Part shown: positions 9,297 through 30,297 of the stretch, one piece after another
Layout: the number at the start of each line of letters is the position of its first letter
How positions within the stretch are numbered: the stretch's first letter is position 1
NCBI GenBank assembly: GCA_965198115.1
Contig: OZ240241.1
Location: 3,008,001 to 3,072,000, forward strand
DNA from: Candidatus Latescibacterota bacterium
Lineage (GTDB): Bacteria > Latescibacterota > UBA2968
Reading direction: 5' to 3'
Length of the DNA stretch: 64,000 bases
The notes under the pieces: model-generated
What the model saw: the letters and a program-made list of their open reading frames with translations, nothing else
Told to the model about the DNA's origin: nothing
The model's database searches: none
Position numbers and translations under genes: made by a program

Positions 9297-12200
9297 CTAG
9301 GTCTCCGCCTTGAGCATCGGAATCACATCCACACTCAGTGCAACCCGCGTCGTCACCCAGCACGCGAACACACCGACGGCGACAATCAAGCCCAGCGTGG
9401 AGCCGAGAGAAACGAACGGTACTCGTGTGGCAGTTTCGACCAGATGGGGCGCGACGGAAATGGTGCCGGCGAGCGCACCGATACACACCCCCGATAGAAG
9501 CAGAAAAAGACCTTCAGCTAAAACCATCCTGCCCAGAGCGTTGCGACGATACCCCACGGCTCTCATCACCGCGAATTCTCTCCGCCGATCAATCGCGTTC
9601 TTCATCATCACAATAGCCAGCCCGACCGTTCCCAAACAGAGCCCGAGCCCACCGAGGACTTGGAAGGTCGACATATACGTATTCTCGACCGCCTTGTAGG
9701 ACGCCAGACGCTGGACGGACGTGACGGTATCGAAACCGAACCGGCCAAGTCGTCGCTCGAGACTGAGCGCGACGTCCCCCACCCTTTCTGCTGGTGTGTC
9801 GATCAGAAAAAACTGATAGCCTTCCTGCGAAGGGAAAACTTCCAGAAAGCGATCTTCGGCAATCATCAGCTCGCCCTGCAGCAAACTGTTCTGCAATAGA
9901 CCGACGATTCTGAGACGCACGGGCTCGTTCCGATCGTCGAGGACCACAACGTCATCTCCCAGACCCAGGTGCAAGATCCAGGTTGCAGAAGCATAATCGG
10001 CAATAGCCGGAATCGCGCCATCGCCGAATTCGCGATACAGAACCGACCAAGGACTTTCAGCCGGCTCACCGTCTACCCCCCGGAGCGACGTCAACTGCGG
10101 GGAGTCCACCGCCTGAAAATTAAAACCCCCTCGCTCTGCCATCCGTCTGCTCACACCAAGGATCTTAGGGAATCGAGGTTGGTAGAGATTGAGACAGCTC
10201 ACATCTTCGCCAGGCTTGACCCTGAAGGCCAAGACCTCGGTACCCTCGAAGGCTGCGACTTCGCCCTCGCTGAACCCCAGATCGATGCGGGTGCTCCTCC
10301 GCTCGAGGTCCAGCAGAATCGGCGAATCGCTTTCCGCCACCAGCTCGAATCCCCCCGTACCCGGATGGTCGAACGAGAGTGCGTCGTGTCGGTTCGCACC
10401 GACAGCCACGATCACGAAACTCGCACACGCCACGAGCGTCACGCTCAGCAGACTTCGCCCTCGGTTTCGGGACGCGTTGGAAACGCCCAGCCCCAGGTGG
10501 GAGGACGCCCACGGTGTCGACGTGCTGCTCAATCGACCCGCAAGAAAAGCGATTCCAGCCATGAGCAGGCTCGCGCCCACGGCGAAAAACAGAATAGTCC
10601 GCGTAGCAGCGTCACTTCCCACGCCCCCGGCAAGGCACAACCCGGCCACGAACAGCCCTACCTGGCCCCATCGCCGCCACAGGAGGGAAGGAGTCTCGGG
10701 CGGGTTGATCGATGCTCCAGCGAGCAGCATCCGGACGGGAACTCGCAGCACGCGTTTGACCGTCAGCAGAATCGTTGCGACGATCACCACGGCTGACACG
10801 GCTAAGCCAACGACGAAGCTGCTCAACGTATAATGCGGCGTCAGCAGTCGGGTCCCAACGGCTGCGACCCATGCAGAGGAGAGACTGTCCATCAGCGCGC
10901 TGCAGTAAAGGGCAGCACCCGGGAGTCCGGCCGCACAGCCAACGAGAGCAACGACACCTGCTTCCACCGTCCACCGCCTCCGCACGGAAGAGGACACGAA
11001 ACCCGTGGCAAGCAGCAATCCTGCCTCACTGCGTCGACGTTCAAGAGAGAGCCCGTACAGAAGAGAGACGAGCAGAATCGAAGACACGATCAGAAATAGA
11101 CTGAATCCAATGAACAACCCGCTGAAATCGGTTGCACCCGACGAGGCTGCCAGACCATCGGCCAGGGACGTGACCACCTGGAGTCCGGACGAGCCGGAAG
11201 GAAGTGCCGCCAGCATCTCCTGCTCGAATTCGTGCCGCACCCTCTCATCCGTACCGAGTAAACGCACGCCCGACAGAATGCCGAACGGACTCTCCCACAG
11301 GGCTCGACCCTTCGGCAGAGACACGAAAGCTTTGGGTGTCGCGGCGTGCGCGTCCCAATAGGCCTCATCCTCGAACTCGATTCGTGTCAGATCGACGGGA
11401 AAGGGCGCATTCCACGCGGCCATGTCGTCGGCGTCGTGCAGTCCCGGAAAATCGGGCGTCAGGGCGGGATCGGACGCGAGACCGGCCATCTCGACACGAC
11501 CGGCGACGTGCAACGTTTCCGTTCGCTCATCGAGATCTTCTTTGGGGCTGAAGTGGTAATAGGTCAGTCGCAGCTCGTCGCCTGGCCGGCTCAACAGCCG
11601 ATCGGCCGCCCATGTGTTCAGGACGATCTCATCCTCGACAGGGATCCGGAGCCCTGTAACGCCCAGCCGATGGTTTGCCTCGCCCTCGATCAACCCCACC
11701 GCCGAAACAGTCGAGTATGGAATCGACGCGGAGCCGACGGTCATCTCGTTCGCCAAATAGGTCAGGATTCCAAGAACCGGTACGCCCATCGCCCGACCGA
11801 CGTGTTTGGCCGCCTTCACGCCTTCCTCGCCGATCAGAAAACCGTCGCTCTCCAGGGCGAGTCCTCCTTTCCGACCCACGATTCGGAGTCCGAAATCGAC
11901 CAGCTCCAGTCCCCTCGAAAGGTCGGCAAAGACCGCTTCGCTCGACGCATCCGCCTCAGGATGCGCCACAAGCAACCGGTTGACCCGATCCCCGACGTTC
12001 AGCACTCGCTGGAGCCCAGGCAGGGAGACATAGCCCACGAGCGGCAACGCCTGGTTCGGTTCCAGCGAAAAACGATTCCCACCATCCGGCTTCGGCGCCT
12101 TGCCCACGCGTAGACGCAAGACCTCGACCGACGACGTAGCCTCTTCGCGCCCAAACAGCGTTTCACGATGGGCATTGCTCGGACGGGCGAAGGACATCTG

Positions 12201-12641
12201 GACGCGATCGCCAGCGGAAACACTGACAGCCAGACGTGCCGGCTGGTTCAGAAGAATTGTCCGTGGCCGTCGAGTCTCTGGTTCGAAGCTCAGTTCTGAC
12301 TTCGGAAACAGGCTGTTGAACCGTTCGTCGACCGCAAAGACGGTCACCGATCGAGCTCGTGCGCCAGTCGACAGGTTCTCGAGCGTGGCCGTGAGCTCGA
12401 TGACCGGCACGACCACCGCCTCTGTTTCAGCAGCGAGGTTTTCAGCCAGCTGGGCACGGAAGTATTGAGCGGACCTGACGGCGTGGGTCACAATCCCAAG
12501 ACGTTCAACGGTTAACGCCCTCAGACTACCCCGTACCGAATCGCCAACCAGGAGGGCGCCGGTCAGAACGGACGTCGCAACCGCCGTTCCCAGCGCGACC
12601 ACCAGATGCTGCCGCCAATAGTGCCGTAGACTCCGTGTCAC
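9297..12641 (-). CDS. Large ABC transporter permease (duplicated MacB-PCD/FtsX type, ~1114 aa)
   Basis: RSLRHYWR start overlapping the ATPase stop (GTGA). Two FtsX-like TM blocks with ERRRSEAGLLLATGF and DRRREFAVMRAVGY motifs. Confidence 0.88.
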   Translation of the reverse strand: MTRSLRHYWRQHLVVALGTAVATSVLTGALLVGDSVRGSLRALTVERLGIVTHAVRSAQYFRAQLAENLAAETEAVVVPVIELTATLENLSTGARARSVTVFAVDERFNSLFPKSELSFEPETRRPRTILLNQPARLAVSVSAGDRVQMSFARPSNAHRETLFGREEATSSVEVLRLRVGKAPKPDGGNRFSLEPNQALPLVGYVSLPGLQRVLNVGDRVNRLLVAHPEADASSEAVFADLSRGLELVDFGLRIVGRKGGLALESDGFLIGEEGVKAAKHVGRAMGVPVLGILTYLANEMTVGSASIPYSTVSAVGLIEGEANHRLGVTGLRIPVEDEIVLNTWAADRLLSRPGDELRLTYYHFSPKEDLDERTETLHVAGRVEMAGLASDPALTPDFPGLHDADDMAAWNAPFPVDLTRIEFEDEAYWDAHAATPKAFVSLPKGRALWESPFGILSGVRLLGTDERVRHEFEQEMLAALPSGSSGLQVVTSLADGLAASSGATDFSGLFIGFSLFLIVSSILLVSLLYGLSLERRRSEAGLLLATGFVSSSVRRRWTVEAGVVALVGCAAGLPGAALYCSALMDSLSSAWVAAVGTRLLTPHYTLSSFVVGLAVSAVVIVATILLTVKRVLRVPVRMLLAGASINPPETPSLLWRRWGQVGLFVAGLCLAGGVGSDAATRTILFFAVGASLLMAGIAFLAGRLSSTSTPWASSHLGLGVSNASRNRGRSLLSVTLVACASFVIVAVGANRHDALSFDHPGTGGFELVAESDSPILLDLERRSTRIDLGFSEGEVAAFEGTEVLAFRVKPGEDVSCLNLYQPRFPKILGVSRRMAERGGFNFQAVDSPQLTSLRGVDGEPAESPWSVLYREFGDGAIPAIADYASATWILHLGLGDDVVVLDDRNEPVRLRIVGLLQNSLLQGELMIAEDRFLEVFPSQEGYQFFLIDTPAERVGDVALSLERRLGRFGFDTVTSVQRLASYKAVENTYMSTFQVLGGLGLCLGTVGLAIVMMKNAIDRRREFAVMRAVGYRRNALGRMVLAEGLFLLLSGVCIGALAGTISVAPHLVETATRVPFVSLGSTLGLIVAVGVFACWVTTRVALSVDVIPMLKAET

Positions 12642-13288
12642 AACATCGTCCCTATATCGAGCCGACGATCGAAACGATCGGCGAGCGTCGCACTGTGTGT
12701 CACGACGACGAGAACACCTTCTCGTGATGCGTGCAGGCTGAAAAGGAGATCGGACACCGTCTCCGCCGTCTGCGAATCCAGGTTCCCGGTCGGCTCGTCG
12801 CACAGGAGGAGACCGGGTGAATAGATCAGCGCCCGGGCGATCGCCGCTCGCTGTCGCTCCCCACCGGATAGAGCGGCCGGCTTGTGGTCCACACGGTCGG
12901 AAAGCCCGACCCGGTCGATCAAGTCACGGGCACGATCGCGGTGGGCAGTCTCGATTCGCTCGAAAGCGTGAACAGGAATCAGGACGTTCTCGATCAGGGA
13001 ATACTGGGGCAGAAGGTGGGCTTCCTGGAACACGAACCCGATCGACCTGTTCCGAAACAGGGCAAGGTCTGGCTCGGAAAGAGCGAACGGATCCTTCCCG
13101 TCTATCCGCACTTCACCCGTCGTCGGTCGGTCCAGCGTACCCAGAATGTGAAGCAACGTACTCTTCCCGCAGCCAGACGGCCCAACGATGCAAAGCGCCT
13201 CGCTGGCGGAGAGAGAAAAGGAGAGATCGGACAGAATCCGGAGATCGCCGAAGGATTTGGAGAGGGAGTTGACGGCGAGAGAACTCAT
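12638..13288 (-). CDS. ABC transporter ATP-binding protein (LolD/MacB-like)
   Basis: Walker A GPSGCGKS, LSGGERQR signature, CDEPTGNLD, VTH switch. Confidence 0.95.
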   Translation of the reverse strand: MSSLAVNSLSKSFGDLRILSDLSFSLSASEALCIVGPSGCGKSTLLHILGTLDRPTTGEVRIDGKDPFALSEPDLALFRNRSIGFVFQEAHLLPQYSLIENVLIPVHAFERIETAHRDRARDLIDRVGLSDRVDHKPAALSGGERQRAAIARALIYSPGLLLCDEPTGNLDSQTAETVSDLLFSLHASREGVLVVVTHSATLADRFDRRLDIGTML

Positions 13289-13716
13289 TCCTGGGATCCG
13301 GAATCGGTGTCTTCAATTTTCGCCGCAACCGCTTCCGGGATTCCCACAGCCTTCATCTTGCCGCCTGGCTCGACTACGCAACAGGCCGTCGTGATTTGCC
13401 CTTCGGCGATGAGTATGCCTTCGCGTGTGAAGGTGTAGCCGAACGTCATCGAGCGCTCGCCTTTCCGAGTCACTTCCAGGCGAATGTCCAACTCGTCCTC
13501 GAAGAAAGCGGGCGCCCGAAAATCGCACGAAGCCGAAACTCGAGGCCATCCGATCTTCTGGCCGTCGTGTTCGGCCATGACGGAGGTGTCCAGCGAGCGA
13601 AGGAACTCGTGCTCTGCCGACTCCATATACCCGAAGAAGCGGGAGAAGTGGACAATGCCGGCCAGGTCCGTATCGGAGAACTCGACCCGTCGCGTCGTCG
13701 TGAAGGCCGTGGGCAT
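13285..13716 (-). CDS. Acyl-CoA thioesterase (4HBT/YbgC hot-dog family)
   Basis: RRVEFSDTDLAGIVHFSRFFGYMESAE motif. Confidence 0.9.
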   Translation of the reverse strand: MPTAFTTTRRVEFSDTDLAGIVHFSRFFGYMESAEHEFLRSLDTSVMAEHDGQKIGWPRVSASCDFRAPAFFEDELDIRLEVTRKGERSMTFGYTFTREGILIAEGQITTACCVVEPGGKMKAVGIPEAVAAKIEDTDSGSQE

Positions 13717-14264
13717 CAGTCCAGACCTACCACGTCGGCCAGCCCGGCATAGCCGTTCGCCGATAAACGCTCCCCGCTCAGGGCGAAGTAACCGGGGCCT
13801 GCGGTCAGCCCGAGACCTTCGACGAACCGATTCATCATGTTGAACAGCGCGCAGACGGCGACGGCGTCGTGCAGCGCCTGCTCATCCCATCCGGCATCCA
13901 GGACTTCATCGGCATCATCGGACGTCACGCGCGACGGGGTTCGGGTCAGCTTTCCGACGTAGCGCAGAATCGGTTTGAGTTTCTCATCCACTTCCGAGCT
14001 GTCGAGATCTTCCATAGCGCTCTGCAGGACGTCGGATGCAACTCCGAACTGTTGTGCGACGGCCGTGTGCACGCCTTGACAATAGTGGCAGGCGTTCACG
14101 CCAGACACATAGGCAGCGATCAGCTCCCGCTCCGCCGCCGAGAGCGGCGACACTTTTCGCATCACGGCCTCGTGATAATCGAGCAGGGGACGCACCGTAT
14201 CGGGGAAACGCTTGAAGACGTCGACCAGGACGGCATCTTCGGGAACCGATCGCAGGAAGGGCAT
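13716..14264 (-). CDS. AhpD-like/carboxymuconolactone decarboxylase family (peroxidase-related) protein
   Basis: ERELIAAYVSGVNACHYCQGVH (CxxC plus H) and FNMMNR. Start reassigned to the ATG at 14264, 2 nt after the upstream stop. Confidence 0.85.
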   Translation of the reverse strand: MPFLRSVPEDAVLVDVFKRFPDTVRPLLDYHEAVMRKVSPLSAAERELIAAYVSGVNACHYCQGVHTAVAQQFGVASDVLQSAMEDLDSSEVDEKLKPILRYVGKLTRTPSRVTSDDADEVLDAGWDEQALHDAVAVCALFNMMNRFVEGLGLTAGPGYFALSGERLSANGYAGLADVVGLD

Positions 14265-14266
14265 TC

Positions 14267-14767
14267 TCAGGTTCCCGGCCGGTATAGCGTGACGAGTGCA
14301 CCCCCCGCGGCCGCACAGACGATACCTAGAAGGAACTCCCAGTTCAGCGCACCGAATCCACCCTTGGGAGGGTGCACAGCCATGGCCACACACGCGTTCA
14401 CGATCGGAGCACCCGCGAACACGATCGACATCACGACCGGTGGTGTTCCCTTTGCGCCGAACGCCAGCAGAATCCCGAAGGCACCCAATGCCCCGGCGAT
14501 ACCGGCCACGGTCGACCAGACCATCCCCTTCATCGGGAAACCGAAGTCTGAGCCATTCAGCTTCAGCACGATCAACGACCCGATCACCGCCGTCAGCACG
14601 TAGGCGACGCCGACGAACAGGTAGGCTTTGTAACGACCGTTCACAGGGTCCGCCATCGACAGCTGACCCGTGTGCAGCAGGACGCCGTAACACCCCCACG
14701 AGGCAACCGAAATCATCGCAAAAGCCAACCACATGAATCCCGATCCCGCAACCTGTTCACCAGCCAT
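14267..14767 (-). CDS. Small multi-TM membrane protein (DMT/EamA-like half)
   Basis: About 5 hydrophobic helices, WGCYG motif, RBS GGAGG upstream. Confidence 0.7.
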   Translation of the reverse strand: MAGEQVAGSGFMWLAFAMISVASWGCYGVLLHTGQLSMADPVNGRYKAYLFVGVAYVLTAVIGSLIVLKLNGSDFGFPMKGMVWSTVAGIAGALGAFGILLAFGAKGTPPVVMSIVFAGAPIVNACVAMAVHPPKGGFGALNWEFLLGIVCAAAGGALVTLYRPGT

Positions 14768-14800
14768 GCATGCCTCCCGTTTGATTGACGGCGACGAGCT

Positions 14801-16081
14801 TCATCCGGCCAGCCGCCTGTAGATTGCCATCGTATTCTCCGCCATCGTTTCGACCGTATATCGATCGAAAACGGCTTCCCGTCCGCGTCGGCCCAAATCG
14901 GCTCTCAGCGGTTCATCGTTCATCAGACGTTCGATCGCATCCGCAACGTCCGAGGGTGCATCCGAAGCCGACAGGATCCCGCCCCCCGTGCCTTCGATCA
15001 GCTCGGGGAACGCCCCGTGATCGGGTTGGACGACGGGGATGCCACACGCCATCGCCTCCAGCGCGAACAGACCCTTCGGATCGTGGTAGGGTGTGGGCAC
15101 GCTCAACACGTCGAGGTCTTGGAGGAAGGCGATCTTTTCCTCCCGGTCGATGTCGAACGCGAACGAAACATTCCCGTCCAGACCGCCCGTCTCAACCTGA
15201 CCCCTGACCGTCTCGAAGTAGGCTTCGTCCCGCTTACCCAACCAACCGGCGACCCGCAGAGACGGTGCACGCTCCGCGCGTGTGTGCAGGAGACGGACGG
15301 CCTCGATCAGATTGTGCAATCCCTTCTCAGGACAGATGCGTGCGAGGTAGCCGATCCTGAACGGTTCATCCTCTGCTCTGTCCCCCGTCGAGAAGCCCTC
15401 CACGCGAATGCCCAGAGGAACGACATCGACCTGTTCGGGGCCCAACCCGAGCCTTTGTGCCATGTGTCGTGCATAATAATGACACGGTGCAATGTGCGCA
15501 TCCGCCTCGCCCGCCCGTTCGCGCAGGAGACGATACGCTTCGGCCTTGTAAGGTTCGACCAACCCATCCAGAAAAATGTCTTCGCCCGCGAATGCCACGA
15601 CAACGGGCGCGCCCACGGCTTCTCTGAGACCGGCCGCAAACCCGCCGAACATCGAGTTCGTCAGCTGAATCACATCCGGCTCGAAGTCCCGAAGGAATTC
15701 GATCAGTTTCTGCATCTCCTTGACGTGGGGGCCGCGGTCGCCCTGCAGCATCGAAACCGTCAGCCCACACAGGTCCTCCGCTTTTGTCGACCCCGACAGA
15801 CGTCCGAGGGAATCGAGAAGGGCCGGATGGTCCAGCAACCGGTCGACGAACCCGGGTGTGTACCGAAACATCGACCACTTCTGCTGAAGGTAGACGTTCA
15901 CGCCACCGAAGAACACACGGTCCAAACTGACGTCCTCGTCGTCCGTTCGGAGCGGCGTGTAGGTCGGAATCAGCACGACCTCGTGCCCCTGGTCGATCAA
16001 GGCTGAGGCGAGTGCGTTGTCCCGGATGCAGGTGCCGCAGTACATGCCGGCTGCACCCGCTGCAACGTAGGCGATTCGCAT
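14801..16081 (-). CDS. Glycosyltransferase family 4 with N-terminal CxxC
   Basis: MRIAYVAAGAAGMYCGTC start (TGATG overlap), GYLARICPEKG, PKGLFALEAMACGIPVV GT-B motif. Confidence 0.88.
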   Translation of the reverse strand: MRIAYVAAGAAGMYCGTCIRDNALASALIDQGHEVVLIPTYTPLRTDDEDVSLDRVFFGGVNVYLQQKWSMFRYTPGFVDRLLDHPALLDSLGRLSGSTKAEDLCGLTVSMLQGDRGPHVKEMQKLIEFLRDFEPDVIQLTNSMFGGFAAGLREAVGAPVVVAFAGEDIFLDGLVEPYKAEAYRLLRERAGEADAHIAPCHYYARHMAQRLGLGPEQVDVVPLGIRVEGFSTGDRAEDEPFRIGYLARICPEKGLHNLIEAVRLLHTRAERAPSLRVAGWLGKRDEAYFETVRGQVETGGLDGNVSFAFDIDREEKIAFLQDLDVLSVPTPYHDPKGLFALEAMACGIPVVQPDHGAFPELIEGTGGGILSASDAPSDVADAIERLMNDEPLRADLGRRGREAVFDRYTVETMAENTMAIYRRLAG

Positions 16082-17556
16082 CAGCCGGATTTCCCGAATG
16101 GGTCGAAGAATCGGTGCAGTCGCTCTTCGGACGGCGCCCTCGTCGCAATCGAGACGACAAACAGAACGGCGACACTGGCCGCCGTCATCCCAACGACCGG
16201 CATGAGCCCCGTTCCTCCGATCGTATAGCCGGAGTCGTTCCAAGCCCGGCTGACGAAGTAGACCCACGACAGCGCGACGGTTCCGAAAGCGGCAAGAACG
16301 GCCGCACGCGTCGTCCGACGCCAGAAGACCGAAGCGACGACCACGGGAAACAGCGCTGCGAACCCGGAGAACGACCAGATGCCCAGACGAAAGATGCTTC
16401 GGTCGACGACCAGGGATAGCGCGAAAACCAGAGCCAGGACAATCGCCACGAAGAGACGGGCGCAGAGCACTTGTTGTCGCTCCGACATCTGATCGTCGAA
16501 CCCGTAGTGGCGCACGATATCCTGCGTGAACATCGTACCGACGGCCAGAACCTGCGAGTCGAGCGACGACATGACCGCGGCGAAAACGCCGGCACCCAGG
16601 AGCCCGGCCAGGATTCCGGGCGCGTGGGTGTCGATGACCCTCACCAGCACGGCGTTGGCGGCCGGCCCCTGCAGATCGGGAAAATCGATCCGTCCCATCA
16701 CACCCAGAAGCACGCTCGGGACCCAGACGATCGCGATGCAAAGGGGATAAAGAGCCACCGGCCACCGAAAGGAGGACTCATCCCGTGCCGTCAACCAGTG
16801 CATGAAGAGATGGGGAAACATACCGGCCGACAAGGGGATCATCGTGTAGGAGGCGAACTGGGCCGGGGAGATCATACCCTCTCGCTGCAGGAGACCCGGA
16901 TGAATCGAATCGACGGCATCAAGAGCCGCAGCGAGACCGCCGTGCCGGCTGACGATCAAACCGACCGTCGCTGCTCCGAGCGTCATGAAAACGAGCGTCT
17001 GAAAGGCGTTCGCCCACGCCGTCCCCCTCAATCCACCGTAGCAGACGTAAGCCAGAACGACCGCGCAGACCACGAACGAGCCTACCCAGTGGGGAACCGA
17101 CCCGTCGGTGATCTGATGGAAGGTGATCCCGCCACCCATCACGCCGATCAACAGATACGGAACGACCAGCGCAACGTTCAGCACGAACAGGGCCAGACCG
17201 ACTCCGTCCGATCCGAAGCGGTCCCGAAAATACTGGGCCTGGGTCACGTAGCCGTATCGCTTTCCCAGCCGCCACAACCGAGTACCCACGAACAGGAAGA
17301 TGACCGGAATCACGATGGCCGAGGATGAACCCATCAACCCGAACACGCCGATCCCGTGGTGGTAGGCTTCACCCGACGCGCCCAGGATCGAGAACGCCGT
17401 CATGTTCGTGCCGAACAGGGACATCAGGAGAAAAAACGGGCCGATCGTCCGGCTCGCGACGAAATAGTCCTCGCCGGTGCCTCTGAACAACCTGTGGCTG
17501 AGCGCACCGACCACCAGAACGATCGCCAGGTAGCCAACGATCACCCCCAGAACCAT
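16081..17556 (-). CDS. Sodium:solute symporter (SSS) family protein
   Basis: EDYFVASR, YGGLRGTAW, FAAVMSSLDSQ motifs; about 13 TM segments. Confidence 0.9.
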   Translation of the reverse strand: MVLGVIVGYLAIVLVVGALSHRLFRGTGEDYFVASRTIGPFFLLMSLFGTNMTAFSILGASGEAYHHGIGVFGLMGSSSAIVIPVIFLFVGTRLWRLGKRYGYVTQAQYFRDRFGSDGVGLALFVLNVALVVPYLLIGVMGGGITFHQITDGSVPHWVGSFVVCAVVLAYVCYGGLRGTAWANAFQTLVFMTLGAATVGLIVSRHGGLAAALDAVDSIHPGLLQREGMISPAQFASYTMIPLSAGMFPHLFMHWLTARDESSFRWPVALYPLCIAIVWVPSVLLGVMGRIDFPDLQGPAANAVLVRVIDTHAPGILAGLLGAGVFAAVMSSLDSQVLAVGTMFTQDIVRHYGFDDQMSERQQVLCARLFVAIVLALVFALSLVVDRSIFRLGIWSFSGFAALFPVVVASVFWRRTTRAAVLAAFGTVALSWVYFVSRAWNDSGYTIGGTGLMPVVGMTAASVAVLFVVSIATRAPSEERLHRFFDPFGKSG

Positions 17557-17747: not shown

Positions 17748-17788
17748 GCGACCTCCCCTTCAATCCATGCCTGAATCAGGTCCACAGC

Positions 17789-17950: not shown

Positions 17951-17992
17951 TATAGATGGTTCCGTCTGGGGCGTCACCGACCCTCGCAGGCG

Positions 17993-23010: not shown

Positions 23011-24106
23011 ACAGGGCCTCGAACGCGCGGGCGTTGACAGGTCGAGGGTTGTGGGTGCCCGTCCACTGTTCAACGGCGTCCGCCGCCAGCGAGGGAAGTG
23101 CATTCTGTTCGACGCCGCACGAACCCAGCCGTTCGGGCAACTCACCGAGGGCTCTGAGGGTCGTGACGCGATCGATCAACCGGTCGACCCCTACCCCCAA
23201 ACCATCGTAGAGCGATGAGTCACCGGCGGCGTTGTAGGCGATCACGTGCGGCAACATCACCGCGACAGCGGCCCCGTGGGCAAGTCCATAACGTGCCGTC
23301 AAGGGATTGGCGCACGCGTGGGCCGCCCCCAGCATCGAAGCCTCGATCGCTGCACCTGCAAAATGGGCGCCCACGAGCACGTCCCCAGCTGTGTCGACAT
23401 CGTCCGGTTTTCCGTAATGTCGCTCGAACGACCCATCGAGCAGACGCCAGGCCTCCCGTGCGAACAGACGCGAGACGGGATTGCGGGTCCGCGTTACGTA
23501 GCTCTCCAAGGAGTGGGCCACGGCATCCAGACCCGTCGCTGCCCGCACCGCCAGGGGCGTCGAAGCGATCAGGGTTGGATCCAGCAGGACCGCTCCGAAA
23601 CGCATCTTGCGATCGCCGCACGCCATCTTCTCGTGCGTGTCGGGCCGCGTAATCAGCGCGTAGGACTGTGCTTCGCTCCCCGTTCCAGCCGTCGTGGGAA
23701 TACCGATCGACGGCAGCAACGCAACTCGTGCCTTGCCAAACCCCTCGTAGTCCTCGACGCGTCCCCCGTTGGTTAGCACCAGGTTGATCGCTTTGGCGCT
23801 GTCCATGGCACTCCCGCCGCCGAGCCCCACGATGGCGTCCGGTGAAAAGGCACGGGCAGCACGCACACCCTCATCGACGACCTCGGAAGTCGGGTTGGGA
23901 TGCACGTCGCCAAAGACGTGGACGGACCGACTTCCTTCTTTCAGCACGCTTGCGAGTTCATCGACCAGACCGGCGCAGACAACACCCGGGTCGGTGACGA
24001 CCAAAACCCGGCGACACGCCATTTCATCGACGACGCGACTAGCGTCGCTCGCAACACCTGGGCCGAATCGGACGTGGATCGATGGATCGTAGGCGAAAGG
24101 GAGCAA
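22994..24106 (-). CDS. Iron-containing alcohol dehydrogenase
   Basis: GGGSAMDSAK, PTTAGTGSE, DAVAH, AHAC and AHG metal-ligand motifs. Confidence 0.92.
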   Translation of the reverse strand: MLPFAYDPSIHVRFGPGVASDASRVVDEMACRRVLVVTDPGVVCAGLVDELASVLKEGSRSVHVFGDVHPNPTSEVVDEGVRAARAFSPDAIVGLGGGSAMDSAKAINLVLTNGGRVEDYEGFGKARVALLPSIGIPTTAGTGSEAQSYALITRPDTHEKMACGDRKMRFGAVLLDPTLIASTPLAVRAATGLDAVAHSLESYVTRTRNPVSRLFAREAWRLLDGSFERHYGKPDDVDTAGDVLVGAHFAGAAIEASMLGAAHACANPLTARYGLAHGAAVAVMLPHVIAYNAAGDSSLYDGLGVGVDRLIDRVTTLRALGELPERLGSCGVEQNALPSLAADAVEQWTGTHNPRPVNARAFEALYAAAL

Positions 24107-24129
24107 GGGGACGTCCGCGGCGTAGCCGA

Positions 24130-25554
24130 TCAGGACGCACGCTGCAGAGCGCGCTGAACGTAGAGGTGCTCGAAAAGGTTACCTTCGTGGGGCTGATCCC
24201 ACGATACCACGTGTGTTCCAAGGGGCCCGATGTTCAGTCGTTCGATCTTCGGGCTTCCGAGCAGATCTTCGGTGAACGTGTCGTCTTCCGTGATCGCCGA
24301 CACCGCCAGCGACGGACCGATGGCATCGAGCAGGTCGGATTGCGGCACTTCCACGACGCTCGCGAACGGGAACAAAAACTCCGTATCGGCCAGCGGGTGC
24401 CCCGGCTCCGCGCGCACGATCGTCGGCACGAGAAAGGTCAATCCGTCCAGGACCTGCAAGCGGTCGTTCCGAAAGTTCGCGGAGACCTCCGTTGCCCCGT
24501 CGTGGCGAAGATAGGTGTCGATCGTGTTCGAAATCGCTTCCGCGAAAGACGGGTTGCCGAAGGCCGCAAGGCCGGCCTCCGGATCGTCGAGTCTTCGCGG
24601 GACCAGGTCGGCCAGCCGCTCGGCAAGCGCCGCAGCCACCTCATCGCCACGCGAAGGAACCCATACGCTCGACGCGTTGATGCACGACCGCCCTCCGTTG
24701 ATCGCGATCGAATCCGCGACCACGTCGATGTGATCCTCCCACCGATCGATCGTGTCTGCCCCGATCAGGACTTTGCTCTGTCCTGGGCCGTGAATCTGCA
24801 CACGCGGATCGTCTAGCCAGGGAGCGACGGTCGCACCGCCCCCGAAGAGCATCGATCGATCGCAGCGAAGAAGAATCTCCGTCACACCACCGTGATCCGT
24901 CGGATAGAAGCTGAAAGCCTCCTTCGGGCACCCTGCCTTGAAGAACGCCTGCGCGATGCGGTAGGGCGTCCACGGTTCCTCCCGCCCGGGCTTGAGCACC
25001 AGCGGCACCTTGAGCGCGATCGACGGGACCCAGAGCGAATGAACCCCCGGTGAGTTGCTAGGAAGGATCTCCCCAAGCGCGCTGGATTGACAGATGTAGC
25101 TCAGAGGGCGTCCACCCTGGACCGTCCACCCCTCGTCGAGCACGGTCAGGTCCAGACCGCGAGTCAGCCCATCGAGAATCTGATCCACGTCCGACAACGC
25201 CTTGTAGATCTTGTCGACGTTCCGACGTACGAGCGCTTCGGGCATGCCCGTCGTGCCCGACAGCGACCGAACGTAGTCGTCGAGCGTCTGTTCGCCCTCG
25301 CCGACCGGGAGCGTATCGTGCACGAACGACTCGGCCGCCATCTTCGAAACTTCGATCAGTTCGGCGACCGGTACCTCGGCCAACCGCGCACGGTGTTCGG
25401 CCATCCGGTTGAGGTCCCGCGCGACGAGACCGCGGTTGGCCTGGCTCACCTCCACCAACGGCTCCTGCGTCTGGATGTGGGCAACGGTCGTCTTGTTCAG
25501 ACTCTCGTAGACCGATCCAGCGCGCAAGATCGGGAGATGAATCGGCGCCGACAT
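24130..25554 (-). CDS. Aldehyde dehydrogenase-fold acyl reductase (GriD/EhpG/LuxC-like)
   Basis: LPSNSPG, VLKPG, catalytic Cys in NGGRSCINAS, EFLFP. HGPGQSK replaces the canonical ELGGK. Confidence 0.78.
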   Translation of the reverse strand: MSAPIHLPILRAGSVYESLNKTTVAHIQTQEPLVEVSQANRGLVARDLNRMAEHRARLAEVPVAELIEVSKMAAESFVHDTLPVGEGEQTLDDYVRSLSGTTGMPEALVRRNVDKIYKALSDVDQILDGLTRGLDLTVLDEGWTVQGGRPLSYICQSSALGEILPSNSPGVHSLWVPSIALKVPLVLKPGREEPWTPYRIAQAFFKAGCPKEAFSFYPTDHGGVTEILLRCDRSMLFGGGATVAPWLDDPRVQIHGPGQSKVLIGADTIDRWEDHIDVVADSIAINGGRSCINASSVWVPSRGDEVAAALAERLADLVPRRLDDPEAGLAAFGNPSFAEAISNTIDTYLRHDGATEVSANFRNDRLQVLDGLTFLVPTIVRAEPGHPLADTEFLFPFASVVEVPQSDLLDAIGPSLAVSAITEDDTFTEDLLGSPKIERLNIGPLGTHVVSWDQPHEGNLFEHLYVQRALQRAS

Positions 25555-25591
25555 CAATAAACCCCGTTCCAGAAGAACTTCGCAAAAATCA

Positions 25592-26671
25592 TCAATAAAC
25601 CCCGACTACGACGGACTCCTGCAACGCGCTGAAAAGACGGAGGTTTTCGACGCCGTCCCACGGGTAGGCGTCGATCGGCCGTGCTCGCTCGGCTTCATCT
25701 CGCTCGAGGAATCGGGGAATGAAAAATTCCTTCGTCAGCGTGGTCAGCGCGACACGCCCTGTCTGGTCGTAATCTACAAGACGTGATGGATCATCCGGAT
25801 CGACCAGCTCGATCACGGCGCGTGGGTTCGGTGGATAGTAAGTGATCGCGTAGTTATCCGCCGGGTCGAACGGCTTGGAATGAGCCAGACCCATCAACGT
25901 ATTCCCGTAGGTCGGCACGAACGCGATTCCCGGAATCAGTTCTTCTCGTGCGAACCGGTTGAACTGGGCGTCCATCTCCGTTCCACCGCAGAAGATCCCT
26001 CTGATTCCCATCTTCTCGAGGGAGATTTTCTCACAGAGCGCATCGAGCAGCTTGGGCGTCGTGAAGATGCACTGGACGTTGTCGTTCGCCCGCAGAATCG
26101 TCAATGCTTGATCGATCGCGTGGTTCTTGTAGGCCTCCAGCTCCTGCATCTTACCGGCCTTGATCAATTTGTTGACCCAACGTGGGTCCAGATCGACCAG
26201 GAAACAGATACCCCCACGAACCTGCGCGAGGTACTCCACGGCCAACCTCAGCCGACGCGGCCCCGTGGGTCCGAGCATGAGCCAGTCGGCCCCCTTCGGG
26301 AATCCGTCGTCCGGAAGGTGGTCGCTGAACATCCGGTAATCGATCTTGTAATCTTCGATGTTGATTCGGTACTTCGGCACACCCGTCGATCCACCCGTCT
26401 CGAAAACCGAGACGGGTCTGTCTGCCATGCCCTTCGGCACCCACCGCCGCACGGGCCCACCCCTCAACCACTCATCCTCGAAATGCCCCAACGACTGGAG
26501 GTCCTCGAATTTTTCGATCCTGTCACGCGGGTCGAAATCCAACCGATCGGCGTAGTCCAACCAGAAAGGACAGCCGGTATCCGGATTGAAGTGCCAAGCC
26601 ACCATCTCGCGAACGTGGGCGTCGAGCGTCTCCTTCGCATCCCGAACTCTGGATTCCAAAGAGTCCGTCAT
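25592..26671 (-). CDS. Atypical adenylating enzyme (GriC/EhpF/LuxE-like)
   Basis: WHFNPDTGCPFW, P-loop FETGGSTGVPK, YGNTLMG, ERD. Short (359 aa) and lacks the usual ANL C-terminal domain. Confidence 0.7.
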   Translation of the reverse strand: MTDSLESRVRDAKETLDAHVREMVAWHFNPDTGCPFWLDYADRLDFDPRDRIEKFEDLQSLGHFEDEWLRGGPVRRWVPKGMADRPVSVFETGGSTGVPKYRINIEDYKIDYRMFSDHLPDDGFPKGADWLMLGPTGPRRLRLAVEYLAQVRGGICFLVDLDPRWVNKLIKAGKMQELEAYKNHAIDQALTILRANDNVQCIFTTPKLLDALCEKISLEKMGIRGIFCGGTEMDAQFNRFAREELIPGIAFVPTYGNTLMGLAHSKPFDPADNYAITYYPPNPRAVIELVDPDDPSRLVDYDQTGRVALTTLTKEFFIPRFLERDEAERARPIDAYPWDGVENLRLFSALQESVVVGVY

Positions 26672-28104
26672 TTCCCCGCCTGGATCGCGAACAATCGGTT
26701 TCGAGTCGCAAGGTAGAGCACGCCATTGGCGAACACGGGCGTCGTGTAGACCGCGCTCCCCATGTTCGTCTCGAACAGCAACTCCAATTCCCTTCCCGCC
26801 TTGAGCACGGCGACATCACCGTCCTCATCGCCGATCAGCACTTTTCCATCCCCCGAAAAAGGCGATCCCCAGATAGCCGCGAACGTATCGTAGCGCCAGA
26901 GCGGCTTTCCCGTTTTGAGATCGATCCCGTAAACGAACCCGCTCAGATCCGCGGCGTAGAGGAGACCGTCCCGGATCGACACCGTCGATATCGTGCGGTT
27001 GTAGTGCTCGTCACCCACGTGCCACACGGCGTGGGTCTCAGTCACGTCCCCTTTTCCGGTCGCGTCGATCGCCCACAAGTGGCCGATGCCCTCTCCGTGT
27101 TCGGGGTCCTGACCGACGCCGATGAACACCTTGTCGTCATAGAAGACCGGGGTCCCGATCAGGGCGTTGCGTGTGCCACGCCCCCCGAGCTCCCAGACCG
27201 AATCCTTCGGATTACAGTCGAACTTCCAAACCAATTTTCCCGTCTCTGCTTCGAGCGCATACAACCATCCGTCCCCACCGGGCATGAACACCTGCCCCTC
27301 ACCATTCACGACCCCGTATGCGGGGCTCGCCCACTGGCCGTGGAGAATGTTCTCGCCGGGCAAACCGTTCTCCCAGACCAGCTTACCGGTCTTTTTGTCG
27401 AGGGCGATGAAACTTGGGGCAAAAGGGGCCGGGATGGCCACGTGACCCTCGTCGACACCGTTACTCGTAACCAGGAAAAGCAGGTCACCCGCACCCACGG
27501 GGGAGCTCGTCGCCAGGTTGTGCGGGAACACGGTTAGCTCTTCGATCATATCGTAGGCCCAGATCACGTCACCGTCGATTGCTGTCGTGTCTGATTCGTC
27601 CGTAAAAGGACCGTCGTTCACACCGTCCCTGAACCCTTCCGTGTCGATACAGACGACCTGGCACTGGTTGGACACATAATAAAGACGGTCGTCCTCGATG
27701 TAGGGCGTCGAGCAGATCCCCTGCTGGGGCCAGTCGTTGACGCGACCGGCCGACAACTTCGTGTGGGTCATCTGCCATAGGAAGGCGCCGGTCGATTCAT
27801 CGAAGGCCATGATGACCCCGCGATCTCCCGCCAGCTTGGGATTCTTCCTCGACTGGTTGTTCGTGCCCACGAACACCTTGCCTTTGTGGACGACCGGCCC
27901 CGCATACGTCTGTGCACCGAGCTCCGCCACCCACTTCGGCGTTTCGGGGTCCCATTCCGAAGGAATACCCGTCGCATCGGTCGCCAGGTTCCGAGCCGGG
28001 GTGAACCCCCACATGGATTCTTCCGCCAGCGCCGCAGATCCGATCGCCAGAGAAACCCCCCATCCGACCAACACACACACACGCCTCACACTATTGATCA
28101 CCAT
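26668..28104 (-). CDS. PQQ-binding-like beta-propeller protein
   Basis: Signal peptide, RBS GGAGG, repeated D..TG...W blades, acidic loops. Confidence 0.85.
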   Translation of the reverse strand: MVINSVRRVCVLVGWGVSLAIGSAALAEESMWGFTPARNLATDATGIPSEWDPETPKWVAELGAQTYAGPVVHKGKVFVGTNNQSRKNPKLAGDRGVIMAFDESTGAFLWQMTHTKLSAGRVNDWPQQGICSTPYIEDDRLYYVSNQCQVVCIDTEGFRDGVNDGPFTDESDTTAIDGDVIWAYDMIEELTVFPHNLATSSPVGAGDLLFLVTSNGVDEGHVAIPAPFAPSFIALDKKTGKLVWENGLPGENILHGQWASPAYGVVNGEGQVFMPGGDGWLYALEAETGKLVWKFDCNPKDSVWELGGRGTRNALIGTPVFYDDKVFIGVGQDPEHGEGIGHLWAIDATGKGDVTETHAVWHVGDEHYNRTISTVSIRDGLLYAADLSGFVYGIDLKTGKPLWRYDTFAAIWGSPFSGDGKVLIGDEDGDVAVLKAGRELELLFETNMGSAVYTTPVFANGVLYLATRNRLFAIQAGK

Positions 28105-28110
28105 ACCCTC

Positions 28111-30297
28111 CTACCAGACCTTCAGATTGTCATAATAGACGTTCGTCGGCGAGTAACCGTAGAGCCCTGGGCTGCCCTCCTCAAGTGGCAGCGGATCCTC
28201 AGCTTCGATCGTCCACGTTGCGGGCTCTTCGAAACCCGTCCGCCAGACCTTGGCACGGACGATCGCCCGGTCGACCTCCTGGTCGACTCTCACCTTCATT
28301 GTATACCAGGTGTCCTCGTCCCAGGCGAAGTCGACCGTCTTGGCCATGCGCAGGTCAGAAAGCCACGATACGATCTGGAGTCGCTGGTGGTTCCCGAGCA
28401 AGTGTACGATGTAGCGATGGCTTATCAGGCCGACATCCGACCGCACGCGCCGATCACGAGTGCCCTTCACATCTGCCTGAATGGTGTAGCCCGACATCGA
28501 CGGGGCCCCGAAAAACACACTCGATCGGTGCAGCTTGATCGGAGACGGGGGCTTCATCAGGACCCGTCCCTCTCCGGTGTCGATCGCCCTGAATTTTCGG
28601 AATCCCCCGACTAGAAACGACGGCTGGGTCCCCAGCTCGAGCGCCTCGAAGTCTTCGTAGTAAGGCAGCCACGGACTGACGCGGACCCGCGCCGTGGCTT
28701 CGAAGTCGCCGGTGCTGAACGTGACCCGGCCCGTCTGGCCGTTCACATCGGGCGAAACGGTAAAGACACCGTCCCCTTCGACCGTCCCCTTCAATCCCTC
28801 GACCCCCCACTTCCCGGACGCCCCCCACATGTCCTGTCCTCTTTCGTTCACGTAGCGAGCCGCGAACTGAATCCGGTCGCCCGGCAAGGCGTGGATCTCC
28901 GCCGGCCGGATCTGAACGTGCGCAGGGGGAAGCGAACCATCGTAGCTCGACACGCCGGGTCGTCCCGCGTGTCGCTGTATCGATGACGGCGCGGACCCTC
29001 CCAGACAGTAGAGGCCCTCCTCGGTCGTGAAGTAGATGCGTCCGTTCGCGATCGCCGGAGACCCGTAAATCTCGGCGTGTTGACCGGGCGCACGCTCGAT
29101 CCGCTTTCGATCCAACGTGATCGGTTTTTCACCACTCACGTCGACGATCGTAAATCCACCGTTGACCTCGGGCACATAGAGCTTGCCATCGCCGTAGGCG
29201 GCGGACCCTTTTCCCACCGTTCCGACATTGTGCTCCCACAGATGCGAGCCCGTCCGCGTATCTAGGCAATGGACGTTCGCGGAGTTGTCGATCACGTAAA
29301 GCTTGCCATCGTGCAGCACGGGGGATGTATATCCGACCATGTGGTTGTCGAAACGCCAGACCTCGTTCGATCCGGTAATATCCCCCACACCGGCAAGATC
29401 GATCGCAACGACTCGACCGAGGGACGTGTTGTCGATGTTCTCTTCGCTGTGCGATGCGTAGACATACCGGCCGTCAGTCACGGGCGAAGAGTTGATACCT
29501 CGCTGGCTCAGTTTGAAACCCCAGATCTTCCGACCCGTGGCGGCATTGAGTGCGTAGATGGACCCATCGGCATCTCCGACGAGCAGGGCTCGCTGACCGC
29601 CGACCTGGGCGATGACCGGCACCGCATAGGTCGTATCCTTTGGGGGCCCACCCGGTGTCGAAATCCAGACCAGATCTCCTGTCCGCTTGTCGAACGCGAA
29701 GTAGCGATGCCGGGGAATGCCCTGCTTGCCCCAACCGGTGCTGAGGTAACTGATCAGCACGAGATCGCCCTCCACGAACGGCGTGTGTGTGCGCCCACCG
29801 TAGCCCGAAATCCGACCGTATTCCTCCGTGAGGGACTTCGACCAGACGATACGTCCATCGCGGTCGAAGCAGAAAAACAGACCGCCAACCCCGTGGGCAT
29901 AGACGTAGCCAGTCTCTGGATCCGCGGCGGGGCTCGCCCATCCGACCCTGTTGAACGGGATCGTCGTGTGAAAGACGTTGAACGAATGGTCCCAGATCAA
30001 GGCGCCGGTTTCGGCGTCGAAACAGGCCACACGCTCCTGTTCGGTCACGTCCTTCCCTGTCCGGCCGACCACGTAAACGCGCCCATCAAACACCACGGGC
30101 GTCGAACGACCCGTGAAATCCGCTCTCCAGAGAAGACTCTGGCCCTCCGTCGACCAATGGGCCGGGAGCCCCTCTTCGAGCGAGACCCCCGTCAGCAACG
30201 GGCCCCGCCAGCCGGGCCAATCGTCCGCCACCACGCCCCCCGACAGAGCTGAACAGACACCGAGCGCGGCGCACCACATCACGTATATCACCCTCAT
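28111..30297 (-). CDS. PQQ-binding-like beta-propeller with C-terminal Ig-like and beta-sandwich extension
   Basis: Signal peptide, WPGWRGP, W-blades, then ~290 aa of beta-rich sequence ending YYDNLKVW. Start could be up to 30378. Confidence 0.83.
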   Translation of the reverse strand: MRVIYVMWCAALGVCSALSGGVVADDWPGWRGPLLTGVSLEEGLPAHWSTEGQSLLWRADFTGRSTPVVFDGRVYVVGRTGKDVTEQERVACFDAETGALIWDHSFNVFHTTIPFNRVGWASPAADPETGYVYAHGVGGLFFCFDRDGRIVWSKSLTEEYGRISGYGGRTHTPFVEGDLVLISYLSTGWGKQGIPRHRYFAFDKRTGDLVWISTPGGPPKDTTYAVPVIAQVGGQRALLVGDADGSIYALNAATGRKIWGFKLSQRGINSSPVTDGRYVYASHSEENIDNTSLGRVVAIDLAGVGDITGSNEVWRFDNHMVGYTSPVLHDGKLYVIDNSANVHCLDTRTGSHLWEHNVGTVGKGSAAYGDGKLYVPEVNGGFTIVDVSGEKPITLDRKRIERAPGQHAEIYGSPAIANGRIYFTTEEGLYCLGGSAPSSIQRHAGRPGVSSYDGSLPPAHVQIRPAEIHALPGDRIQFAARYVNERGQDMWGASGKWGVEGLKGTVEGDGVFTVSPDVNGQTGRVTFSTGDFEATARVRVSPWLPYYEDFEALELGTQPSFLVGGFRKFRAIDTGEGRVLMKPPSPIKLHRSSVFFGAPSMSGYTIQADVKGTRDRRVRSDVGLISHRYIVHLLGNHQRLQIVSWLSDLRMAKTVDFAWDEDTWYTMKVRVDQEVDRAIVRAKVWRTGFEEPATWTIEAEDPLPLEEGSPGLYGYSPTNVYYDNLKVW

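What the first reader, a model, noticed from the sequence alone, without database searches (positions are those of the whole stretch)
9297..30297. Intact 17-gene 'core-less' biosynthetic and export cluster built around PQQ-like propellers
Seen: 17 co-oriented genes. Nearly all junctions overlap or are <=34 bp; the one exception is a ~245-bp gap filled with REP palindromes. There are no frameshifts or IS elements. Established: the families supply carboxylate activation (PaaK-like ligase, GriC/EhpF-like), reduction (GriD-like, Fe-ADH), halogenation or flavin oxidation, class C radical SAM chemistry, glycosyl transfer, thioester release, precursor import (SSS) and MacB/LolCDE-type export. There is no PKS, NRPS, terpene or RiPP core, so rule-based BGC finders could miss it. 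Inference: an imported aromatic or heterocyclic acid is tailored, reduced to an alcohol, glycosylated and exported to the envelope, where three co-encoded propellers bind or use it (a new cofactor, lipid head group or surface modification). I recall similar neighbourhoods in Planctomycetes/Acidobacteria but know of no assigned product.
Basis: partly seen in the sequence, partly recalled or inferred. Interest (0 to 1): 0.9.

Follow-up and report, generated by a model that had tools for sequence, protein, structure and literature searches.

The report
Hydroxybenzoate-tailoring and periplasmic export pathway
These 17 packed genes are one genome's copy of an uncharacterised pathway kept together in several poorly cultured bacterial phyla, which likely takes up a hydroxybenzoic acid, decorates it, reduces it to an alcohol, adds a sugar and would hand it to exported propeller proteins; its end product is still unidentified.

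Summary
The 17 genes are real, intact and co-oriented. Orthologues keep this order in Latescibacterota, Poribacteria, Acidobacteriota, Calditrichota/KSB1 and Planctomycetota. They co-occur even when scattered: in 80 Acidobacteriota the GT4 is in exactly the 21 genomes with the EhpF-like enzyme, the radical SAM in 20.

Relatives add substrate clues. A chorismate-lyase-fold (DUF98/Rv2949c-like) gene, often between the radical SAM and halogenase genes, is in 22 of 30 EhpF-positive and 0 of 46 other Planctomycetota, pointing to 4-hydroxybenzoate. Planctomycetes also carry a co-distributed terpenoid module with the function-unknown 'SHC-like' cyclase. The window's genome lacks both, so it likely imports the acid.

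AhpD is a local insert; halogenase and PaaK are optional in the locus; a fourth propeller lies 3.7 kb downstream. Best model (0.4): a tailored hydroxybenzyl glycoside exported to periplasmic propellers. Nothing is shown biochemically.

In print I found only likely fragments: planctomycete baaAB, unassigned 'Halo_AMP' sponge clusters and the SHC-like clade. The scan found this cluster before on other DNA.

The parts
28111..30297 (-). Propeller A, 728 aa: hydrophobic N-terminus, PQQ/BamB-type propeller, extra C-terminal region
   Evidence: Pfam PQQ_2; hydropathy; alignment of 18
26668..28101 (-). Propeller B, 477 aa; invariant His194, His220, His254, His335, Asp123, Asp217, Trp257, Arg369, Trp411, Tyr452 (predicted ligand or metal site)
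   Evidence: alignment of 23; model pLDDT 84.7; BamB/PQQ-type fold
25592..26671 (-). EhpF/GriC-like adenylating enzyme, 359 aa
   Evidence: PDB EhpF E 1.4e-44; P-loop and other motifs invariant in 123 of 123 rows
24130..25554 (-). GriD/EhpG-like ALDH-fold reductase, 474 aa; Cys291 and Asn167 kept, His255 at the ALDH general-base Glu position (motif recalled)
   Evidence: Pfam Aldedh; invariant in 109 of 109 rows
22994..24106 (-). Iron-containing alcohol dehydrogenase, 370 aa
   Evidence: Pfam Fe-ADH; Asp194/His198/His263/His277 in 78 of 78 rows
21898..23010 (-). Propeller C, 370 aa; invariant Cys190-Asp191; stays beside GT4/ABC/permease even in EhpF-less loci
20553..21905 (-). HemN-like (class C) radical SAM enzyme, 450 aa; below the cut-off of every named NCBIfam family
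   Evidence: CxxxCxxC invariant in 31 rows
19232..20539 (-). PaaK-like aryl-CoA ligase, 435 aa (optional in the locus)
   Evidence: PDB phenylacetate-CoA ligase E 6.8e-59; absent from several loci
17993..19228 (-). Flavin-dependent halogenase-like protein, 411 aa; GxGxxG, Lys71 and WxWxIP invariant (optional in the locus)
   Evidence: PDB halogenases E 1.5e-59 to 1.8e-28; alignment of 22
17748..17992 (.). 245-bp intergenic gap holding a genome-wide dispersed repeat with one perfect hairpin (17833-17857)
17556..17747 (-). DUF3311 small membrane protein, 63 aa, partner of the symporter
   Evidence: Pfam DUF3311 above cut-off
16081..17559 (-). Sodium:solute symporter, 492 aa
   Evidence: Pfam SSF; TIGR00813 below cut-off
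14801..16081 (-). GT4 glycosyltransferase, 426 aa, with an unusual N-terminal Cys15-x-x-Cys18-x-x-Asp21 motif and intact Arg248/Lys253/Glu342
14267..14767 (-). Conserved small membrane protein, 166 aa, at least 4 hydrophobic segments, no family hit
   Evidence: 56-64% identical in distant phyla
13716..14264 (-). AhpD/CMD-like protein, 182 aa; local insertion, not part of the conserved system
   Evidence: TIGR01926 above cut-off; 0 of 105 loci; absent in same-genus locus L185
13285..13716 (-). Hot-dog thioesterase (4HBT/YbgC type), 143 aa
   Evidence: best PDB hit named 4-hydroxybenzoyl-CoA thioesterase, E 6.9e-17
12638..13288 (-). LolD/YbbA-like ABC ATPase, 216 aa
9297..12641 (-). Double-FtsX (MacB/LolCDE-type) permease, 1114 aa, two large soluble loops
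   Evidence: only HMM hit in the genome
4363..5607 (-). Propeller D, 414 aa: best genome match to the propeller that follows the radical SAM gene in relatives, displaced 3.7 kb downstream
   Evidence: 47% identity, next best 34%; gene order in relatives

Best explanation
The 17 genes are a conserved operon-like block that likely imports a 4-hydroxybenzoate-type acid, is predicted to tailor it, reduce it to a benzyl alcohol and glycosylate it, and would export the glycoside to periplasmic propeller proteins that likely bind it as a ligand or cofactor. Steps: (1) Supply. The SSS/DUF3311 symporter brings the acid in, helped by a TonB-dependent receptor in some relatives; planctomycetes can make it with a chorismate-lyase-fold enzyme (gene presence shown, substrate inferred). 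(2) Optional tailoring. PaaK makes the CoA thioester, the flavin enzyme halogenates the ring, the 4HBT-type thioesterase releases the acid (inferred from families). (3) The class C radical SAM enzyme adds a C1 unit (inferred; near-obligate gene). (4) The EhpF/GriD pair adenylates the acid and reduces it to the aldehyde; the Fe-ADH gives the alcohol (family chemistry established for GriC/GriD, residues shown intact). (5) The GT4 adds a sugar (inferred). (6) The ABC/double-FtsX machine passes the product to propeller C or D (inferred from gene linkage only). In planctomycetes a polyprenyl synthase, an SHC-like cyclase and a prenyltransferase probably add an isoprenoid anchor; the window's genome lacks that module.
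For: Gene order: GriD follows EhpF in 75 of 80 loci, most with propellers A/B before and Fe-ADH, C and radical SAM after; the set recurs, permuted, in Planctomycetota. Co-occurrence when scattered: of 80 Acidobacteriota, GT4 is in 21 of 21 strong-EhpF genomes and 0 of 59 others, radical SAM in 20 of 21 and 0 of 59. Substrate clue: a gene of about 190 aa lies between radical SAM and halogenase genes in L090, L096, L119, L125, L127, L139, L141-L143. Its model (pLDDT 91.7) matches DUF98 AF1396 best (E 2.5e-9, TM 0.67/0.78) and chorismate lyase at E 5e-5; the ESM Atlas puts it beside clusters in which 11-19% of members carry Chor_lyase or Rv2949c-like families. It is in 22 of 30 strong-EhpF and 0 of 46 other Planctomycetota (4 of the 22 built the model). 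The thioesterase and ligase have aryl-CoA best hits. GriC adenylates and GriD reduces 3-amino-4-hydroxybenzoate (PMC10179220 passages). A planctomycete that makes 3,5-dibromo-p-anisic acid has a chorismate-lyase-like gene beside a halogenase gene (10.1101/723874 passages), the adjacency seen here. All 15 strong-EhpF genomes among 80 Planctomycetota have D-type propellers; none of 57 without them has strong EhpF. Propellers B and C keep invariant polar residues.
Against: No reaction is shown and no product is known. The chorismate-lyase fold is shared with non-catalytic UTRA domains, which rank above true chorismate lyase in the fold search; only 1 of 16 members touches PF01947, below cut-off, and 0 of 4. 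The window's genome has no such gene, so its substrate is inferred from relatives. Three of 5 EhpF-less, propeller-positive Planctomycetota tested keep GT4, ABC, permease and propellers C/D but lack EhpF/GriD hits and carry a NuoEF/NuoG-like/NapH-like module, so the export core does not need the benzyl-alcohol branch. The fold search of propeller B gives only BamB-type scaffolds and no ligand-bound match. Co-occurrence among kin is not independent. The order of steps is unconstrained.
Confidence: 0.4

Rival explanations
1. The product is a membrane glycolipid: an aromatic head joined to a (cyclised) polyprenyl chain, extracted by the double-FtsX ABC machine and ferried by the propellers as carriers, not used as a cofactor. 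Genomes without the terpenoid module import the lipid precursor or use a housekeeping UbiA-family enzyme.
For: DUF116-polyprenyl synthase is in 24 of 30 strong-EhpF and 6 of 8 propeller-positive EhpF-less Planctomycetota, 0 of 38 others, and in 2 of 21 versus 0 of 59 Acidobacteriota. SHC-like, synthase and prenyltransferase genes abut cluster genes in L107, L108, L129, L134, L138, L146-L148, L157 and L186. PDxDDT is kept in 22 of 22 cyclases and DDxxD in 26 of 26 synthases. The receptor orthologue was found only in genomes without the synthase (3 of 43). The window's genome has 4 UbiA-family genes.
Against: In 16 of the 20 synthase loci fetched the module does not abut recognised cluster genes. 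The window's genome has neither cyclase nor that receptor, nor do 19 of 21 EhpF-positive Acidobacteriota have the synthase.
Confidence: 0.25
2. A redox shuttle: the cytoplasmic enzymes recharge an aromatic acid to its alcohol, periplasmic propeller enzymes re-oxidise it to gain reducing power, and the symporter returns the acid. Some lineages replace the small molecule with an iron-sulfur wire.
For: EhpF-less loci place NuoEF, NuoG-like and NapH-like genes among the same GT4, ABC, permease and propeller genes. Symporter and chorismate-lyase-fold gene occur together, as recycling would need.
Against: It does not explain the strictly co-occurring GT4 or the terpenoid module. The propellers score far below PQQ-dehydrogenase cut-offs.
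Confidence: 0.13
3. A secreted halogenated metabolite or metal chelator, re-imported by the receptor and symporter; 3,5-dibromo-p-anisic acid would be its product or shunt.
For: The receptor in relatives passes the TonB siderophore-receptor cut-off. Chorismate-lyase/halogenase adjacency matches baaAB. A sponge survey lists halogenase-plus-adenylation clusters with frequent PQQ-like domains from Acidobacteriota, Latescibacterota and Poribacteria (10.64898/2026.08.03.742642 passages).
Against: Single-copy genes that co-occur strictly even when dispersed look like housekeeping. The halogenase is absent from some full loci (L166, L184). The window's genome lacks the receptor.
Confidence: 0.12

Closest known systems
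GriC/GriD (grixazone, Streptomyces griseus) and EhpF/EhpG (Pantoea phenazine pathway)
   Same: Two-protein carboxylic acid reductase type; the EhpF structure is the only PDB sequence match; GriC/GriD act on an aminohydroxybenzoate.
   Different: No phenazine or aminohydroxybenzoate synthesis genes among the 17; coupled instead to Fe-ADH, GT4, a double-FtsX ABC machine and propellers.
baaA/baaB of planctomycete strain 10988 (3,5-dibromo-p-anisic acid; 10.1101/723874)
   Same: Chorismate-lyase-like gene beside a flavin halogenase in a planctomycete (passages), as in L126, L127, L139, L141-L143.
   Different: Described as a two-gene locus, not validated genetically; sequence identity with these genes was not tested; the window's genome has no lyase.
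'SHC-like' class II cyclase clade of unknown function (PMC7306690; 10.1101/2024.10.28.620730)
   Same: Cyclases of matching taxonomy, with catalytic motif kept and their own polyprenyl synthase, sit in or co-occur with this system.
   Different: Absent from the window's genome; clade membership was not tested with a tree; the passages read do not link it to an aromatic or export module.
'Halo_AMP' sponge clusters (10.64898/2026.08.03.742642)
   Same: Halogenase plus AMP-binding enzyme, with PQQ-like, GT, TE, radical SAM and TonB genes in the figure key, same host phyla, no product assigned.
   Different: Its focus, CC A, has P450 core genes and is proposed for barettins (sections 15, 16); no P450 is among the 17 genes; overlap not tested by sequence.
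Merosterol pathway (MstE, Scytonema)
   Same: Hydroxybenzoate plus polyprenyl chain plus class II cyclase logic (PMC9401909 passage).
   Different: MstE is a single-domain cyclase; the cyclase here has both domains and no UbiA lies in the loci annotated.
Heterocyst glycolipid HglT/DevBCA, LolCDE and YbbAP type VII ABC systems (recalled)
   Same: Alcohol, then GT4 glycoside, then FtsX-type export; ATPase closest to LolD/YbbA.
   Different: No PKS or acyl-chain genes, no membrane-fusion protein among the 17; all named NCBIfam cut-offs missed.

Membership tests
EhpF/GriC-type adenylating enzyme | Full-length match to EhpF with adenylation motifs | tested here: met
EhpF/GriC-type adenylating enzyme | Adjacent ALDH-fold partner with catalytic Cys and no general-base Glu | tested here: met
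   75 of 80 loci; Cys291 and His255 in 109 of 109 rows (ALDH motif recalled)
EhpF/GriC-type adenylating enzyme | ATP- and NAD(P)H-dependent reduction of an aromatic acid | not testable with these tools
   needs assay; the EhpF structure paper was not held
Phenazine or grixazone biosynthetic cluster | Scaffold-forming genes in the cluster | tested here: not met
   none among the 17 genes
Flavin-dependent halogenase | GxGxxG, catalytic Lys and WxWxIP motifs (recalled) | tested here: met
   invariant in 22 rows; aligned to PDB halogenases
Flavin-dependent halogenase | Halogenation activity | not testable with these tools
   below Trp_halogenase-type NCBIfam cut-offs; assay needed
PQQ-dependent quinoprotein dehydrogenase | Score above family cut-off | tested here: not met
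   49-82 bits against 480 for TIGR03075; PF01011 well short of full length
BamB | Score above TIGR03300 cut-off | tested here: not met
   55-150 bits against 285; fold similarity only
Chorismate pyruvate-lyase (accessory gene in relatives) | UbiC/DUF98 fold | tested here: met
Chorismate pyruvate-lyase (accessory gene in relatives) | Pfam PF04345 or PF01947 above cut-off | tested here: not met
   0 of 4; 1 of 16 at E 0.088
HemN / HutW / named class C radical SAM families | Score above NCBIfam cut-off | tested here: not met
   HemN 176 against 325 bits; HutW 169 against 400
LolCDE / MacB / YbbAP | Score above NCBIfam cut-off | tested here: not met
   LolD 229 against 308; YbbA 180 against 336; permease only a partial ADOP hit
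'SHC-like' clade (cyclase in relatives) | Placement in the published clade by phylogeny | not tested
   only Pfam, PDB and motif evidence
Halo_AMP CC A | P450 among core genes | tested here: not met

The most novel reading that the evidence does not exclude
An unknown vitamin-like cofactor of the periplasm. It is a hydroxybenzoate-derived glycoside, isoprenoid-anchored in planctomycetes, made de novo by some bacteria and salvaged by others through a dedicated receptor and symporter. A type VII ABC machine loads it onto the PQQ-like propellers that are expanded in these phyla. This would give one function to the SHC-like cyclase clade, the DUF116-polyprenyl synthase and a large orphan propeller family, and explain dibromo-anisic acid as a shunt product.
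Probability: 0.2. Interest if true: 0.93.

Novelty: categorically new. Interest (0 to 1): 0.74.

Why it matters
The EhpF-like gene was found in 30 of 151 Planctomycetota, 21 of 80 Acidobacteriota and 33 of 61 genomes of the window's own phylum, at 52-91% identity, so this is a widespread and strongly conserved piece of envelope chemistry with no assigned product. It ties together three loose ends in print: the function-unknown SHC-like cyclases, the planctomycete brominated benzoate with a two-gene locus, and unassigned halogenase clusters with PQQ-like domains in sponge symbionts. It names a concrete substrate class, and a cultured planctomycete carries at least the DUF116-synthase fusion (Psta_0175, PMC5898192 passage), so the question is directly testable by knockout and LC-MS.

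Tried and rejected
LuxE/LuxC fatty-acid reductase: the only PDB sequence hits are EhpF. The weaker EhpF homologues (14 of 151 Planctomycetota, 31-39% identity) lie beside MMPL or peptidase U32 genes in the 4 loci read and are a different system. AhpD as a pathway member: rejected. True PQQ dehydrogenases or BamB: below cut-offs; the fold search of propeller B was uninformative. Essentiality data: the Planctopirus limnophila TraDIS paper (PMC10632474) gave no relevant passage in main text or five readable supplements, and its remaining data file was too large to read; it may bear on a housekeeping role. The supplement of PMC7306690 on SHC-like gene context could not be read and may already show part of this linkage; supplements of the bioRxiv papers are closed. 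Expression: no RNA holder listed. Complex prediction of permease loops with propeller C was not available, and the GT4 was not folded, so no verdict on either. Promoter scan gave one weak sigma-70-like site upstream (30406-30378), not used as evidence. An EhpF tree of 52 rows (FastTree, rooted on two weak homologues) intermixes phyla; no test of monophyly was run, so transfer is only suggested. Literature searches that found no description of the whole system: (open-access library only).

Full report
Observation. Seventeen minus-strand genes run from 30297 to 9297 without internal stops; junctions are -17 to +37 bp apart from one 245-bp gap. The gap carries a dispersed repeat with 53 hits at 51 other places in the 8.43-Mb genome, against none for two coding controls, and one perfect hairpin. 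GC content is in line with the rest of the window. In transcription order the genes are: propeller A, propeller B, EhpF-like adenylase, GriD-like reductase, Fe-ADH, propeller C, class C radical SAM, PaaK-like ligase, halogenase-like flavoprotein, DUF3311, SSS symporter, GT4, a small membrane protein, AhpD-like protein, thioesterase, ABC ATPase and a double-FtsX permease.

Conservation. The EhpF-like protein has at least 8000 relatives in the protein database, all 8000 candidates scored. The best 80 genome loci come from Latescibacterota, Poribacteria, Calditrichia, KSB1, Acidobacteriota and single records labelled Planctomycetota and Cytophagia; the nearest is a Latescibacteria record at 91%. 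GriD follows in 75 of these 80 loci. Strong orthologues (over 50% identity) are in 30 of 151 Planctomycetota, with 14 more holding a weak, unrelated-context type, in 21 of 80 Acidobacteriota (one more weak), and in 33 of 61 genomes of the window's phylum, all within its class. These are samples of partly incomplete, related genomes.

One pathway, variable layout. Many genomes split the cluster, yet the parts travel together. Among 80 Acidobacteriota the GT4 orthologue is in the same 21 genomes as strong EhpF and in none of the other 59; the radical SAM is in 20 of the 21 and none of the 59 (at most 22 GT4 candidates were scored per genome). Among 80 Planctomycetota, D-type propellers are in 23, including all 15 with strong EhpF. 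AhpD was in none of 105 loci and is missing in a same-genus genome. Halogenase and PaaK are missing from several complete loci. Relatives often have a fourth propeller and a FhuA-like receptor after the radical SAM gene; the window has the propeller at 4363-5607 but the genome has no match to the receptor.

Substrate clue. In planctomycete loci a gene of about 190 aa sits between radical SAM and halogenase genes or beside other cluster genes. A 19-row profile hits PDB 2NWI over its length (E 2.7e-5). The predicted structure matches that DUF98 protein best, then UTRA domains, then chorismate lyase; Pfam now names DUF98 'chorismate pyruvate-lyase Rv2949c-like'. Single members do not pass Pfam cut-offs. 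The family is in 22 of 30 strong-EhpF and 0 of 46 other Planctomycetota, and 1 of 4 genomes of other phyla. Together with aryl-CoA ligase and 4HBT-type best hits and GriC/GriD chemistry (PMC10179220, passages), this points to 4-hydroxybenzoate. The window's genome (100% complete, 5.1% contaminated) has no lyase by three searches, so import by the symporter is inferred. A planctomycete producing 3,5-dibromo-p-anisic acid has a lyase-like gene next to a halogenase gene (10.1101/723874, passages); identity with these genes is untested.

Terpenoid module. Planctomycetes add ferredoxin-like genes, a second radical SAM, a DUF116-polyprenyl synthase, a protein-prenyltransferase-beta-like protein and a two-domain SHC-like cyclase. 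The synthase is in 24 of 30 strong-EhpF and 6 of 8 propeller-positive EhpF-less Planctomycetota, 0 of 38 others and 0 of 4 non-planctomycetes, and in 2 of 80 Acidobacteriota, both EhpF-positive. It abuts cluster genes in ten loci, for example cyclase-synthase-lyase-DUF3311-SSS-thioesterase-prenyltransferase-ABC-permease in L129, but stands apart in 16 of the 20 loci fetched around the synthase. Two papers describe an SHC-like clade of these phyla as function-unknown (10.1101/2024.10.28.620730, passages and section 6; PMC7306690, passages). The window's genome lacks the module.

A result against a simple reading. Three of 5 EhpF-less, propeller-positive planctomycetes tested keep GT4, ABC, permease and propellers C and D, have no EhpF/GriD hit, and carry NuoEF, NuoG-like and NapH-like genes in the locus; the same module appears beside a D propeller in L148 and L194. 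The true core is therefore GT4, ABC, permease and propellers, fed by alternative upstream chemistry.

Residues. Adenylase motifs are invariant in 123 of 123 rows, reductase Asn167/His255/Cys291 in 109 of 109, Fe-ADH metal ligands in 78 of 78 (rows at 40% identity or more, many near-duplicates). The halogenase keeps its three recalled motifs in 22 rows, the radical SAM its cysteine triad in 31. The GT4 keeps nucleotide-sugar residues and a Cys15/Cys18/Asp21 motif. Propeller B has four invariant histidines and several aromatic and acidic residues; propeller C has an invariant Cys-Asp pair. Propeller B folds as a BamB/PQQ-type propeller with no specific match. The genome has 22 ORFs hitting the D-propeller profile.

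Mechanism. Shown: gene content, linkage, co-occurrence, residues and folds. Established for the families: adenylation and reduction, CoA ligation, thioester release, glycosyl transfer. Inferred: the substrate, the order of steps, export of the glycoside and its binding by propellers. I give 0.4 to an exported hydroxybenzyl glycoside bound by propellers, 0.25 to an isoprenoid glycolipid, 0.13 to a redox shuttle, 0.12 to a secreted metabolite or chelator, 0.1 to others.

Novelty. Ten searches of the open library found no description of the whole system. A 2026 preprint reports halogenase-plus-adenylation clusters with frequent PQQ-like domains in the same phyla and assigns no product; its focus cluster has P450s, which this one lacks (10.64898/2026.08.03.742642, passages and sections 15-16). 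Earlier notes of this scan report the cluster and the terpenoid junction on other DNA; they are not independent support. The parts are known families, but I found no known system that combines them.

Noticed in passing
window 1363-4169: Transposase-like ORFs: an IS1380-like gene (1363-2349 and 3579-4169) apparently interrupted by an IS256-like element (2528-3280); family names recalled from the translations.
   Followed up: no
window 7551-9083 (+): A further PQQ-like propeller (510 aa) convergent on the permease; a convergent propeller is also there in same-genus locus L185.
   Followed up: partly
window 30462-31980 (+): Response-regulator receiver and HD-domain genes diverge from the cluster's first gene; a regulatory link was not examined.
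   Followed up: no
G000:C1:70901-71359: A fragment 82% identical to the C-terminal 121 residues of the cluster halogenase lies elsewhere in the genome.
   Followed up: no
L106, L109, L111, L148, L194: Conserved block D-propeller, NHL protein, small ferredoxin, NapH-like membrane Fe-S protein, propeller, NuoEF fusion, NuoG-like protein in EhpF-less Planctomycetota: a candidate electron wire to the periplasm.
   Followed up: partly
L098-L101: A second, weaker EhpF-like type sits behind an MMPL gene, with a thioester-reductase-like gene (L099, L101) or peptidase U32 (L098-L100) nearby, without a GriD-like neighbour.
   Followed up: partly
L184:13293-18066: EhpF, propeller B and propeller A are each split in two in this Acidobacteriota locus, possibly sequencing errors.
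   Followed up: no
L007-L011, L057-L080: Many Latescibacterota and Poribacteria loci carry variable inserted genes between EhpF and GriD or nearby, including a sulfatase (L062) and a Uma2-type gene (L103).
   Followed up: no
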